Source: Myxococcota bacterium (lineage in GTDB: Bacteria; Myxococcota; XYA12-FULL-58-9; JALHOP01). Taken from it: a DNA stretch of 45,844 nucleotides. A program made the position numbers. The stretch covers positions 1-45,844 of the forward strand of contig JBGGMJ010000203.1 in NCBI GenBank assembly GCA_041288095.1, read 5' to 3'. Below, piece after piece: positions 36,001-45,844 of this stretch; within the stretch, counting starts at the first letter, position 1, and every line of letters starts with the position of its first letter.

Positions 36001-39000
36001 CGCGTCGTATGTCGACAAGGTGTGTTTGGGCATCGCCTGCTCGATCAGGCGGGCGATCTGGCTCACTTGGACCGCGACATCGCGAGCAGCTGGACCATCT
36101 GATTGAACAGGCCCTGCGCCTGCATGTAGTTCGAGCGAATGCGCCCATCCACCTCGGAGGCGCCGCGCTGCGCCGAGGAGACGAGCTCGGCGTTGATCTT
36201 CTCGAGCGCCGCCCGCAGGTGCTCGGAGACATTACCGACCAAGCCGGCGCCGGGCATCTTGAAGCCCTGCTCTTGTCCCTGACCTTGCTGACCACCGGGG
36301 CGTTGCTGACCACCAGGGCGTTGCTGGCCACCGGGGCGTTGCTGGCCACCGGGGCGCGCCGCGGCTGCGGGGTCGGCGCCGGGCTCAACGGACTGCGGCT
36401 GCGGTCCACCCGCGCGCGGTTGTCCTGGTCGTGTTTGGCCGGGACGGGTCTGCCCGGGTTGGTCACCGGTGGCGCTGTCAGGCGAAGGCACCGCGCCTGC
36501 TTCCCTGGCATCGGCTCGGCCCGTCTGCTGTCCGCCCGGCGTCTGTTGTCCGCCGGGTGCTTGCGTCTGCCCACCAGGCTGCTGCGACTGGCCCTCTGAT
36601 TGCTGTGACTGGCCCGCCGATGCCGCGGCGTCCATCACGCCCTTCATGGCGTTACCGAGCTTGAACGCTTCTTCGGCGCGCTCGAAGGCCTGGTTCATCT
36701 TCTCGATGGCGATCTTCGCCTTGATGCCTTCTTGCGCGAGCTTGTGCATCGCGTTGCGCAGCTCTTTCATCAAGCGGCGCGCTTCGGCTTCGTCCTTCTG
36801 GAACTGGAACATGAACTTCACGAAGAAGGCTTCCCAGTTGAAGTGCATGCCGTCCCACGACGTCGTCGTGTCGAAGCCGCCACCGTTGTTCACGAATGGC
36901 TCGTCGGTGGTGATGTCCGTCGCGCGCATGGCGCGGCCGCCCGCGCGAGCGCCGCGCAGAGACAAAGTGGCGCCGCCGCTCGATGATTCATTGGGCATGC
37001 GCGCCGGGGCGCGCGTGCTACGGCCGCCGACTGGGCCACCGACGTTGCCGGCATTGCCACCCGGGCGTGGACCCGTCGGCACGTTGGGTCCGCTCGGCGG
37101 GCCGGGCCTCGTGGGAACGGTTGGACCGGTCGGCGTAGGCGTCGTGGTCGTGCTCAGTGTCGTCTGTCCGAGCGGCGTCCGCCCCGAGGCGTCCGTCGCT
37201 TTGGCGTTCGCCATCACCGTCCGCCCAAGCGGAGTTGCTTCGCTGTGGACTGGCGCCTTCGGCTGCTCGCCTTTCGTCGGCTCGCGTTTCTTCGGCAGGT
37301 GGATGGTGTTCTGCGTTGGTGGCCGCGGCACCGTCGGATCGCCGTCCTGTGGCGTGACCGGTCGCCCACCTTCTTCGCCGGGACGCTGCGGGCGCTCTCC
37401 GGTCGTAGGCTGACCCACGGTGGGCCGGTTGAGCGTCGGGCGGTCCGGTCTGTCGTCCGTTGTCGGCCTCCCGGTCGTCGGCCGGTCGGTCGGCATGTCG
37501 CCGGCCTCGCCGCCCTCGGGCAACGGCCGCTGCGGCTTGTCGTCCGCCGAGCGCAAGCCGCGGCTCTGGCCACCGTCGGCGAGCTGACCTTCGTGGTGGG
37601 CGCCTTCGCCTTCTTGTCCGCCATCGCGGAGATGCGATTCGCGCGGCTGCGTTGGCGGCCGCGGCACCAAGGTCTCCGAGTAGTGCTCGACGGTGAGCGG
37701 CGAGGCTTCCGCCGAGCTGGGCTTCAAGAAGCTGAAGATCTTCTCGAGGACGTTGCTGGCGGCCTCGGCGGTGATCGGCGCGTGCGTCGCCGGCGGCAGG
37801 ATGGTCGGTGCGTTGGGGTCGCTGGTGACGAGCTGCCGCTGATGGCGGTTCAGCCCATCGGCGGTGTTCATCTCGCGGGGGCGGCCGATGAGCGTGCCCT
37901 TGTCTTCGGTCTTCTGCGCCTGCAGCGTCTCGCCGGCTACGGTTTTCAGAAACGTCTGCTGGGACTCGGAGGCGCGCTCGGCGCGCTCTGCTCTTGCCTG
38001 CTTGCGCAGCACCATGGCGCGCAGCACGTCTTCGTCGACGGCGCGGCCGGTACGATGCTTGATGTGCTCGCCAAGCGCCTCGACCTTTTCATCGAGCTTG
38101 GACTTCTTGGCGGACCCGTCCGTGCCAGCCGCTGGGGCCAGCCCTTCTCCGGTACGAACGGTGATGTTGTCTGCCATCCTCCTCGCCTTGCGCCGTGACC
38201 GGCGCCGCTAGTGTCGGGCTAGCGTGGCGACCTCACGTGCACTAGGTGCGCGTGATCGTCGTCGTGATCTGAGTCTGACGTTCGGCGTGCTCGGTCAAGA
38301 TCTTGATCGCTAGCTTCAGCATCTCGCGCGCCTCGTCGTAGTTCGACTTGGCGTTCTCGATGCCCTGCTCGAATACTTCCTGCATCAACTGGTGACGCAT
38401 GATTTCGATCTTCTTGTCGTCGGCTTCGCGCTGCGGGCCCGACGTCTTGTTGATGTACTCGCCGAGGCTGTTGATGAGCTGACCCAGGGCCGGGCCGATA
38501 GCCTGACCGACCGGACCCGCCATGGCGAGACCCATTTGCACGACCGCGGCCGCGATAGCGAACATGAGCTTCATCGCCGCCGCTTCGCGCTCGGCTTGAA
38601 TCTGCTCTTCGGTCGCCTTGATCTCGTTCTTCTTGGACTCGACCTTGCCCTTCTGCATCAGGGCCTTGATGTCGGATGCGAGCTTCGTGTCGATGATGCC
38701 GGTCTTCGCCATCGTCGACAACGCCGTCCACATGAGCGACGCGTCTTCGCTGCCGGTGCGGCTGACATAGTCGTCGAGGCGCGACTCGAGCTCCGAAGGC
38801 GAACGGGTGCTGACGTTGGTGGCGCGCAGCGCGCGGTTGGCGCCGGCGGTCGCGTTCACGGCGTTGATGTTACCGTTGACCGCGGCCGTGGTGGTCGTGG
38901 TGCCGTTGGTCGTCCCAGCGCGCAGGGTCGACGTCGTGTTCTCGGGCAACGTCGGTGGGCCGCCGAAGTCGAGCGCCGCGTTGGCGTTCGTGTCGCGGGC

Positions 39001-45000: not shown

Positions 45001-45844
45001 GCCGGTGGAGTCCGCGTTGATGCTCTGGGACTGAGCGCCTCTACGTCTGATTCGGTCGCCGCTGCTCATAACCCCTGCTCCTTAGACCGTCCGGTGGCGC
45101 TTGACGGACCCTGGCTCTACTTACACATGGCGATGCGGGCCAGGTTGTTGCAAGTAACCCCAGTTGGGATCGCCTGGCAACGGAAAGGTTCGCTCGTTAC
45201 GCCTACATTCGTGATCTCTAGTTGCATCGCCGTCTCAAGTGTGGCGGATACAAGCGCGTGGGCAAGCGTCGCGGCGACCCGTACGACCGACTAGAGGGTG
45301 ACTTGGTGACGCTGGAGCGCGTCGACGACTTCGAGCGCCTATTCACTGACTTTCAACGCCCCGAGATCTACGACCTTACGGGCATCAAGAAGCCCCCGAC
45401 CCGCGTCGATTTCGACGAAGACATCAACACCGACCAGTCGCTCATCGTCTGGGACGTCGTTCCCGAGGGCGAAAACGAGTCGATCGGCTACGCCTTGTAC
45501 GTGGCCTACGACGGCCCGCCGTACTTCGCTTTCTTCATGTTCGCGGGCAAAGTCGACCTCGACATCGCGCAAGACGCGGCGCTTCTCATGGTGCACGCGT
45601 TCTTCAAGTTCACCGAAGAGCAGCGCCTTCACACCTTCGTGCCGCAGCCGGTCGACGACGAGATCGACGCGCGCTTGGTGGAGGCCGGCTTCGACCGCAT
45701 CGAAGAGCACCCCACGGTCGACCTCTCCAAGGAAGGCGCCTACGTCATGGAGCGCCACACCTACGAGGCCTACTACGGCGACGAAAATGAGGACGACGAA
45801 GAGGCAGCCGAGCTCGATTTCGACGAAGAGTAGGGGTTTAGAGC

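What a model noticed while it worked through the whole genome (the two positions that open the first line are those of the whole stretch)
38242..45069. A T3SS translocon operon (tip-like, tandem SycD, two SctE, SctB) in a Myxococcota class, where none was thought to exist [...]
The operon g04836-g04832 encodes a needle/tip-like protein, a tandem SycD/LcrH chaperone, two SseC/SctE-like and one SseD/SctB-like translocator, all without signal peptides. It is conserved through the class, so this myxobacterial T3SS has a recognisable pore-forming translocon.
Evidence so far: g04834 hits Pfam SseC at 42.4 bits (cut-off 30.2) and g04833 weakly; g04835 hits LcrH_SycD at 130.7 bits (cut-off 104.8) and g04832 hits translocon SseD at E 2.6e-5. 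The SctE alignment finds 12 of 14 class genomes and 0 of 67 other Myxococcota; g04832 homologues are in 18 of 22 class genomes; gene order is kept in relatives. Six SycD-like matches lie in this genome. Published accounts say Myxo T3SSs lack tip and translocon.
(Added by a program. Inside this text positions count along the whole contig: contig position 1 is position 1 of the stretch shown here. "Call 12" and the like, gene names such as g00115 and contig names such as C1 are that model's own, and its searches are not shown. The text may have been shortened before it was handed on; [...] marks where a part breaks off. The agent that wrote the report below was given it as the finding of a first reader that could run no searches.)

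Follow-up and report, generated by a model that had tools for sequence, protein, structure and literature searches.

The report
Translocon-like operon in myxobacterial T3SS
Uncultured relatives of myxobacteria carry a conserved gene set resembling the pore-forming tip of a bacterial injection needle, which suggests that the 'needleless' system of the model myxobacterium is a reduced form and not the rule for the group.

Summary
The five ORFs and their scores are confirmed. Tip-like, tandem SycD-like, SctE-like, SctB-like order holds on one contig in 14 of 21 other class genomes. Class profiles rank AopB and an IpaC/SipC-family protein as best non-paralogues among 4,681 targets. The genome's scattered T3SS is Myxo 'long' type (SctV tree), with no SctC, SctD or short SctF assigned. 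Corrections: two SctE genes occur only in this genus. The tip call rests on gene position, a C-terminal helix and language-model neighbours (EspA, LcrV); HMM and fold searches gave nothing. The trait is not class-specific: compact or diverged versions occur in three other Myxococcota families (13 of 17, 5 of 19, 1 of 1), while the 123- and 42-genome families show none convincingly. New: the operon continues with a conserved unknown protein and a DMATS-fold prenyltransferase, and carries a conserved ECF-type promoter beside a linked ECF sigma gene. Best reading: a real but divergent translocon module. Secretion, pore formation and the outer-membrane exit are untested.

The parts
45119..45149 (-). 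Conserved bipartite promoter-like site (AACC, about 16 nt, GTGTA) 57 nt before the tip-like gene
   Evidence: GTGTA upstream of 17 of 17 tip genes and 14 of 14 SctE genes examined; a matrix trained on 22 sites from other genera ranks this site first among 3,045 GTGTA sites and among 4,505 gene starts
43888..45069 (-). Tip-like (SctA-like) hydrophilic protein, 393 aa; long helical hairpin with needle/tip-type C-terminal helix
   Evidence: No Pfam hit; model pLDDT 66, no significant fold match; Atlas named feature neighbours EspA 0.94 and LcrV 0.93; no hydrophobic segment in 16 of 16 homologues
42681..43820 (-). Tandem (two-domain) SycD/LcrH-like TPR chaperone, 379 aa
   Evidence: TIGR02552 130.6 bits; profile matches PcrH, SycD and AcrH chains in PDB, below generic TPR proteins; full-length family match in 21 of 22 class genomes
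42633..42663 (-). Promoter-like site before the first SctE-like gene
   Evidence: Matrix score 14.1, top 0.4% of gene starts
41081..42556 (-). SctE-like major translocator, 491 aa; one hydrophobic segment at 229-263
   Evidence: SseC 42.4 bits; 21 of 28 family members hit SseC at E<=0.01; AopB is the only natural protein hit in PDB (E 0.032) and the top non-paralogue of 4,681 targets (E 0.011)
40880..40910 (-). Promoter-like site before the second SctE-like gene
   Evidence: Matrix score 16.8
39323..40828 (-). Second SctE-like gene, 501 aa; duplicate confined to genus g1; hydrophobic segment 398-420
   Evidence: About 51% identity to g04834 in two core blocks; present only in G000, G011, G012, G013; sister to the first copy, support 0.735
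38242..39285 (-). SctB-like minor translocator, 347 aa; hydrophobic segment 235-260; conserved P-x-L-P at 111-114
   Evidence: SseD E 2.6e-5; 8 of 17 members hit SseD; 86-sequence profile ranks a Providencia IpaC/SipC-family protein top non-paralogue, E 3.6e-4; motif in 16 of 17
36063..38177 (-). Conserved 704-aa low-complexity protein directly after SctB-like; candidate secreted substrate, unassigned
   Evidence: Directly after SctB-like in 11 relatives; P-x-L-P-P-type motif in 8 of 10; no Pfam or Atlas hit
34945..36066 (-). DMATS/ABBA-fold aromatic prenyltransferase-like protein, 373 aa, overlapping the previous stop codon
   Evidence: Model pLDDT 86.6; Foldseek E 3e-11 to dimethylallyltryptophan synthases; R181, R236, Y240, K299 invariant in 9 of 9; 15 of 20 class genomes, 0 of 281 others; at the operon in 9 relatives
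33343..34050 (+). ECF sigma factor, candidate regulator of the operon
   Evidence: TIGR02937 71.8 bits; beside the operon in 9 relatives
45222..45833 (+). Conserved divergent gene of unknown function upstream of the operon
   Evidence: No family hit; homologue upstream of the tip gene in most relatives

Best explanation
The operon is a divergent type III translocon module that belongs to the genome's scattered Myxo-type T3SS. Shown: gene identity by profile, order, conservation, hydrophobic segments, and a T3SS export core elsewhere in the genome. Inferred from known injectisomes: the two-domain SycD-like protein holds the SctE-like and SctB-like proteins in the cytoplasm through their N-terminal proline/leucine motifs, perhaps one per domain. 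The linked ECF sigma factor switches the operon on. The export gate secretes the tip-like protein to the end of a short filament built from needle-like subunits, and the two hydrophobic proteins then insert into a contacted cell's membrane. How the outer membrane is crossed is unknown; borrowing the Tad-type secretin is my preferred guess. About 0.75 that these are translocon homologues handled by the T3SS; about 0.45 that they form a pore in a target cell.
For: Order equals acrV-acrH-aopB-aopD of the Aeromonas reference and holds on one contig in 14 of 21 other class genomes. SseC over cut-off and in 21 of 28 members at E<=0.01. Reverse test with decoys: the SctE profile ranks AopB and the wide SctB profile ranks an IpaC/SipC-family protein above all 4,672 genome proteins except paralogues; hhalign E 1.1e-4 and 6.2e-4. 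Hydrophobic segment in 27 of 28 SctE-like and 11 of 17 SctB-like proteins, in 0 of 16 tip-like. Atlas named neighbours of the tip are EspA and LcrV clusters. The genome has SctV over cut-off and SctR, S, T, U, N, Q, L, O, J, plus SctI-, SctP- and SctK/FliG-like genes; all 20 class genomes searched have an SctV match. SctV groups with Myxococcota long-locus SctV, support 0.907. In G055 (f12) a compact version lies beside an SctV gene.
Against: The operon is on a different contig from every core gene. No SctC: the two secretins scanned score 149.5 and 90.9 against cut-off 238.45, and the three secretins look like PilQ, GspD and a Tad type. SctD is over cut-off in 0 of 22 class genomes and SctF in 0 of 22; no short needle subunit was found. 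Reverse hits are weak and one-sided: the SctE profile missed the Providencia SctE, the SctB profiles missed AopD, and the tip profile missed both reference tips. Only 1 of 86 SctB-like proteins hits Pfam SctB2, and that profile's best PDB hit is an unrelated coiled coil, haemagglutinin, E 0.002. No NCBIfam SctE model matched. The strict PxLxxP motif is not kept. Each SctE-like protein here shows one hydrophobic segment, against three in the two references. The promoter motif is not found before most core genes.
Confidence: 0.7

Rival explanations
1. Translocon homologues reused as a non-injecting structure. The T3SS exports them only to the periplasm or cell surface, where they and the many needle-like paralogues build a filament or release a pore-forming lytic complex at prey contact, working with the Tad/Kil pilus.
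For: No SctC, SctD or short SctF assigned. Ten long proteins with needle/tip-type C-termini in this genome. A Tad-type secretin is present. In M. xanthus the T3SS* is recruited by Kil and needed for lysis (PMC12075869, passages).
Against: The complete tip, chaperone, major, minor order is kept across a class and in other families, as expected for a working translocon. Secretins were recruited repeatedly from other systems (PMC3459982, passages), so a borrowed one is plausible.
Confidence: 0.3
2. Chance resemblance: a TPR protein beside coiled-coil membrane proteins that hit SseC/SseD through composition, with no link to type III secretion.
For: Most scores are below cut-offs; coiled-coil profiles hit designed helices and haemagglutinin; the SycD model rings weakly in 12 of 14 control genomes; no physical linkage to the core.
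Against: SseC rang in 0 of 14 controls at E<=0.001. Four adjacent genes each point to the matching translocon part in the right order. References outrank 4,672 decoys. SseC hits outside the class fall in the same kind of operon in 8 of 10 loci examined.
Confidence: 0.08
3. Flagellar export leftovers, or a translocon taken recently from a proteobacterial injectisome.
For: The core includes FliA-, FliG- and FliK-like hits, and SctS/SctT score slightly higher on flagellar models.
Against: SctV passes hrcV (850.8 against 692.25) and fails FlhA (694.6 against 772.1). SctV is 60-64% identical to f17 copies and 40-50% to proteobacterial ones. The operon is present across 7 families with deep divergence. 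No translocator tree with proteobacterial or chlamydial sequences was built, so old transfer is not excluded.
Confidence: 0.07

Closest known systems
Ysc-family translocon operon (Aeromonas acrV-acrH-aopB-aopD; Yersinia lcrVH-yopBD)
   Same: Gene order; class II TPR chaperone; AopB is the best natural match of the SctE profile.
   Different: Chaperone has two SycD domains; tip has no detectable LcrV homology by HMM or fold; operon is unlinked to the core; extra unknown gene and prenyltransferase; no dedicated secretin.
SPI-1/SPI-2 translocons (SseB-SscA-SseC-SseD; SicA-SipB-SipC)
   Same: Pfam SseC over cut-off, weak SseD hit, EspA-like neighbours for the tip, IpaC/SipC-like match for the minor translocator.
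   Different: Scores mostly far below the cut-offs; one predicted hydrophobic segment in SctE; free-living host with no known eukaryotic target.
Myxococcus 'needleless' T3SS* (long locus)
   Same: SctV clade; homologues of the SctY-like TPR protein, needle-like gene, SctI, J, K, P, Q, R, S, T, U and several SycD-like proteins in G115 of family f17; no SctC. That f17 is Myxococcaceae is my inference from genome size and gene order.
   Different: Core is split over at least three contigs here. SctE/SctB-like genes are present here but not found in f17 (1 of 123 weak hits, a different genome in each of three searches) or f21 (0 of 42).
Chlamydial T3SS (LcrH-CopB-CopD)
   Same: Scattered loci, several SycD-like chaperones, extra translocator copies (PMC4536800 and PMC3459982, passages; paralogues here).
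   Different: Chlamydia has a secretin and a needle; no chlamydial sequence was compared here.
DMATS-type indole prenyltransferases (CymD, PriB, IptA, TleC)
   Same: PT-barrel fold, Foldseek E 3e-11, TM about 0.65; conserved basic and tyrosine residues that fit the diphosphate site as I recall it.
   Different: 13-18% identity; sits in a secretion operon; substrate unknown.

Membership tests
T3SS translocon operon | Class II TPR chaperone (SycD/LcrH) directly upstream of the translocators | tested here: met
   130.6 bits over cut-off 104.8 as the sum of two domains; order kept
T3SS translocon operon | Major translocator SctE: SseC domain, coiled coil, hydrophobic segments | tested here: met
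   SseC 42.4 over 30.2; AopB top non-paralogue; one hydrophobic segment by Kyte-Doolittle, fewer than in the references
T3SS translocon operon | Minor translocator SctB after SctE, one hydrophobic segment | tested here: inconclusive
   Position and hydropathy fit; SseD 24.4 bits against cut-off 130; IpaC/SipC-family hit E 3.6e-4; AopD not hit
T3SS translocon operon | Hydrophilic tip protein SctA (LcrV, IpaD or EspA type) | tested here: inconclusive
   No HMM hit in 75 homologues beyond one needle hit at E 0.049; Foldseek IpaD rank 15, E 0.085; only generic coiled coils by VIA; Atlas EspA 0.94, LcrV 0.93
T3SS translocon operon | N-terminal chaperone-binding motif PxLxxP (PMC4536800) | tested here: inconclusive
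   Related motifs conserved: L-x-P-x-x-x-P type in 21 of 28 SctE-like, P-x-L-P in 16 of 17 SctB-like (patterns chosen after seeing the alignments). Strict spacing not kept
T3SS translocon operon | No Sec signal peptide | tested here: met
   Hydropathy only: 0 of 71 with an N-terminal hydrophobic stretch
T3SS translocon operon | T3SS-dependent secretion and pore formation | not testable with these tools
Complete injectisome (NF-T3SS) | Export apparatus SctRSTUV, ATPase SctN, SctQ, SctL, SctO, SctJ | tested here: met
   contigs C92, C41, C31; SctV, R, S, Q over cut-off, SctN and SctU just under, SctT, J, L under
Complete injectisome (NF-T3SS) | Dedicated secretin SctC | tested here: not met
   Three secretins: PilQ over cut-off, a Tad-type one, and one inside a T2SS cluster (read from ORFs, not scanned with the SctC model). 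Genome is 90% complete; neighbourhoods of secretins in relatives were not examined
Complete injectisome (NF-T3SS) | SctD inner ring and short SctF needle subunit | tested here: inconclusive
   0 of 22 over cut-off for each; weak needle hits (E<=0.05) in 17 of 22, all in long frames
Complete injectisome (NF-T3SS) | Gatekeeper SctW | not tested
   No genome-wide search was run
Myxo NF-T3SS (Abby and Rocha 2012) | SctV in the Myxococcota clade, apart from proteobacterial systems | tested here: met
   46-sequence FastTree, support 0.907; one gene, two FlhA outgroups, no chlamydial sequence
DMATS/ABBA prenyltransferase | PT-barrel fold with conserved basic residues | tested here: met
DMATS/ABBA prenyltransferase | Prenyl transfer activity | not testable with these tools
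   Needs an assay

The most novel reading that the evidence does not exclude
The translocon is older than the split of Myxo systems from host-targeting injectisomes, and it works here without a dedicated secretin. These bacteria assemble a contact pore from an ECF-controlled module, leave through a borrowed Tad-type secretin, and use an operon-encoded prenyltransferase to lipidate a translocator or the 704-aa substrate for membrane anchoring. The needleless Myxococcus system would then be a secondary loss.
Probability: 0.2. Interest if true: 0.88.

Novelty: new variant of a known kind. Interest (0 to 1): 0.68.

Why it matters
The standard account places Myxo T3SSs at the base of non-flagellar systems, without secretin, needle, tip or translocon, and suggests the translocon came after the secretin (PMC3459982, passages). 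Translocon-like operons in at least four Myxococcota lineages that also lack an assigned SctC make the opposite order testable: translocon first, later lost in the cultured predators. They also offer candidate pore-formers for the open question of how myxobacterial T3SSs act on contacted cells. A prenyltransferase inside a translocon operon has no precedent that I recall; I did not search the literature for it.

Tried and rejected
Complex prediction of the tandem chaperone with SctE residues 85-260: no answer, score 0.27 against mark 0.32, not evidence either way. Tip: PDB sequence searches with 16 and 75 sequences found nothing relevant; Foldseek had no match at E<=0.001 and listed alpha-pore toxins and IpaD at E 0.03-0.09; VIA best Z 8.6 to generic coiled coils, IpaB N-terminus among them; hhalign to a reference SctA 0.6%. 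The 704-aa protein: no Atlas feature hit. The word-indexed search with the SctE alignment returned only 10 close proteins. Sigma-70 scan: 0 promoters; terminators at chance level. The promoter matrix does not mark most core T3SS genes, and of 8 needle-like paralogues it marks 1. Of 21 proteins scanned (17 motif-marked genes, 4 paralogues), 4 had a Pfam hit, so a substrate regulon is not shown. Two outside SseC hits (G302, G098) had no T3SS-like neighbours and are taken as noise. Earlier scan findings: none returned. Literature searches listed no paper describing a myxobacterial translocon; the library lacks most subscription papers, I did not see Thiery et al. 2022, and no supplements were read (those of the bioRxiv preprint are closed). 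The class name was not established. Class-specificity was rejected.
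Full report
Observation. Five minus-strand ORFs fill 38242-45069 as described. The quoted scores reproduce: SseC 42.4 bits for the 491-aa protein and E 0.0023 for the 501-aa protein; LcrH_SycD 130.6 bits and SseD E 2.6e-5. The chaperone passes its cut-off only as the sum of two TPR domains of 70.6 and 65.9 bits. The 393-aa 'tip' has no Pfam hit. By hydropathy, none of 71 family members has a signal-peptide-like start; 27 of 28 SctE-like and 11 of 17 SctB-like proteins have an internal hydrophobic segment, and 0 of 16 tip-like proteins do.

Conservation in the class. 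The class has 22 genomes, one order, nine families. The SctE-like protein finds 19 of 22, the tandem chaperone 21 of 22, and the SctB-like alignment 18 of 20 genomes at least 80% complete, with 0 of 281 other phylum genomes. Tip, chaperone, SctE, SctB lie in order on one contig in 14 of the 21 other genomes; five more show part of the order, mostly at contig ends; G001 (95% complete, 480 contigs) gave no hit and G016 (65%) only a partial chaperone. Two SctE genes occur only in the four genomes of genus g1. The two copies are sisters (support 0.735). The other 11 complete operons have one.

Are they translocators? Twenty-one of 28 SctE-like proteins hit SseC and 8 of 17 SctB-like proteins hit SseD. 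For a reverse test I searched class profiles against nine reference proteins mixed with 4,672 genome proteins. AopB was the first non-paralogue for SctE (E 0.011), and a Providencia IpaC/SipC-family protein for the 86-sequence SctB profile (E 3.6e-4). The Providencia SctE, AopD and both reference tips were not hit, and the 17-sequence SctB profile hit no reference. AopB is also the only natural PDB hit of the SctE profile (E 0.032), but the SctB profile's best PDB hit is haemagglutinin, a coiled-coil artefact. Proline/leucine motifs near residue 110 are conserved in both families and resemble, without matching, the PxLxxP chaperone site described for CopB (PMC4536800, passages). The tip is the weakest call. 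Its model is a long hairpin (pLDDT 66) with no significant fold match and no HMM match in 75 homologues. The named Atlas clusters nearest by features are EspA and LcrV, at 0.94 and 0.93; those families are carried by 27% and 12% of members, so this is a lead. The order equals acrV-acrH-aopB-aopD.

The machine it would serve. The genome has one SctV (850.8 bits, over the hrcV cut-off, under FlhA), alone on C31; SctU with a SycD-like gene on C41; and SctT, S, R, Q, P-like, O, N, L, K/FliG-like, J and I-like genes on C92, interrupted by unrelated genes. In a 46-sequence tree the class SctV groups with other Myxococcota long-locus copies, apart from five proteobacterial SctV (support 0.907; one gene, no Chlamydia). 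An f17 genome shares the accessory genes. So this is a Myxo-type system. No SctC is assigned: the three secretins look like PilQ, GspD in a T2SS cluster and a Tad type. SctD and SctF are over cut-off in 0 of 22 genomes. Ten long proteins end in a needle/tip-type helix, but no short needle subunit was found. SctW was not searched.

Not confined to the class. Pfam SseC hit 10 of 281 outside genomes. In all five f10 loci the order is tip-like, short SycD-like, SseC-like, and in four of them a fourth helical gene follows (none was listed for G076's frame until, which shows it too); one f10 SseC-like protein scores 45.2 bits, over cut-off. Three f12 loci show tip-like, SseC-like and hydrophobic or SseD-like genes, one beside an SctV gene. 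G025 (f13) has tip-like, SycD, a 621-aa hydrophobic protein, three more SycD and an SctB-like gene (E 3e-12). An 8-sequence alignment of the compact proteins finds 13 of 17 f10 and 5 of 19 f12 genomes, 8 of these being its own sources, and matches the class SctB and SctE profiles at 94.8% and 89.8%. I did not inspect the neighbourhoods of the additional hits. In f17 each of three searches gave 1 of 123 weak hits, a different genome each time, and f21 gave 0 of 42. I take f17 and f21 for Myxococcaceae and Anaeromyxobacteraceae by inference. That fits the literature: Abby and Rocha examined Cystobacterineae, found no YopB/YopD or LcrV homologues, and noted these could be missed (PMC3459982, passages); Herrou et al. 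describe the M. xanthus cluster as lacking secretin, needle and translocon (PMC12075869, passages). A 2026 preprint reports T3SS as mainly restricted to Myxococcia (10.64898/2026.07.10.737566, passages). PMC11821767, PMC11509652 and PMC12288465 (passages) showed no translocon claim in the passages seen. Six searches found no report of a myxobacterial translocon.

The operon continues. A 704-aa low-complexity protein follows SctB in 11 relatives, and a 373-aa gene overlapping its stop lies at the operon in 9. The latter folds confidently (pLDDT 86.6) as a DMATS-type prenyltransferase (E 3e-11), keeps invariant basic and tyrosine residues, and occurs in 15 of 20 class and 0 of 281 other genomes. 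An ECF sigma gene lies beside the operon in 9 relatives. A bipartite motif, AACC then about 16 nt then GTGTA, precedes the tip gene (GTGTA in 17 of 17) and SctE (14 of 14). A matrix from 22 sites of other genera ranks this tip promoter first among 4,505 gene starts and both SctE genes in the top 20; 44 gene starts score 12 or more, against 0 of 1,500 gene-internal windows. It marks one needle-like paralogue and, weakly, the SctP-like gene, but not most of the core. That the ECF reads it is inferred.

Mechanism and verdict. Most likely the module works as in injectisomes: chaperone-bound hydrophobic translocators and a hydrophilic tip are exported by the Myxo-type core and insert into a contacted membrane (0.7 for translocon homologues handled by the T3SS, about 0.45 for a pore in a target cell). 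The main rival is export without injection, in league with the Tad pilus (0.3). Chance resemblance and recent transfer are unlikely. It works like a translocon operon and meets the chaperone and SctE tests; the SctB and tip tests are inconclusive; the whole system fails the secretin test for a complete injectisome. Interest 0.68.

Noticed in passing
L178:9779-10180, L177:9956-10231, L174:9458-10219, L179:8355-11300: The last ~60 residues of the tip-like protein recur at 61-69% identity in ORFs with no T3SS neighbours detected, in records titled Nitrosarchaeum, Spirochaetales (with a signal-peptide-like start), Acidobacteria and Woesearchaeota; similar tails sit on proteins with LysM, PAN or other domains. 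Possibly a mobile assembly tag.
   Followed up: partly
G000 C181:33054, C82:35586, C210:21230, C210:35166, C188:8081, C46:1720, C196:1, C92:37386, C10:81060: Nine further long proteins ending in a needle/tip-type helix, several beside SycD-like genes.
   Followed up: partly
L194:15709-16278, L195:13251-13475, L235:19123-19590 (G115, f17): The 'needleless' long and short loci of an f17 genome contain genes with needle-like C-termini, one only 74 aa; no Pfam or NCBIfam hit at E<=0.005.
   Followed up: partly
L233:8571-10067 and 8043-8564 (G115); L234 (G217); L242 (G071): Stand-alone pair of a needle-tailed protein and a SycD-like gene in f17 and f21; the G115 protein hits NolX and HrpK1/HrpF translocator models weakly (E 3e-5, 1e-4).
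   Followed up: partly
G000 C1:18519-19418; C94:672-2386: Orphan SctB-like paralogue, and a SycD-like plus degenerate SctE-like pair, elsewhere in this genome.
   Followed up: partly
G000 C129:56272-57846; L195:13739-14911: DUF1521 protein with the promoter motif in this genome; a DUF1521 protein also lies inside the f17 long T3SS locus. Candidate shared substrate.
   Followed up: partly
G000 C60:34893, C60:16067, C137:10288, C107:44565, C107:46395, C50:299, C188:132539: Unknown proteins with high-scoring promoter motifs and disordered-looking N-termini; possible secreted substrates.
   Followed up: partly
G036, G057, G062, G066 (family f16): Small Myxococcota genomes (1.3-2.5 Mb) keep a strong SctV match.
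   Followed up: no
window 32482-33216 and 34219-34920: lexA stays linked to the ECF gene or the operon in several relatives; a Pro-Arg repeat protein lies between the ECF gene and the operon end here.
   Followed up: no
L191 (G017:C61): In G017 the prenyltransferase-like gene lies between two SctB-like genes.
   Followed up: no
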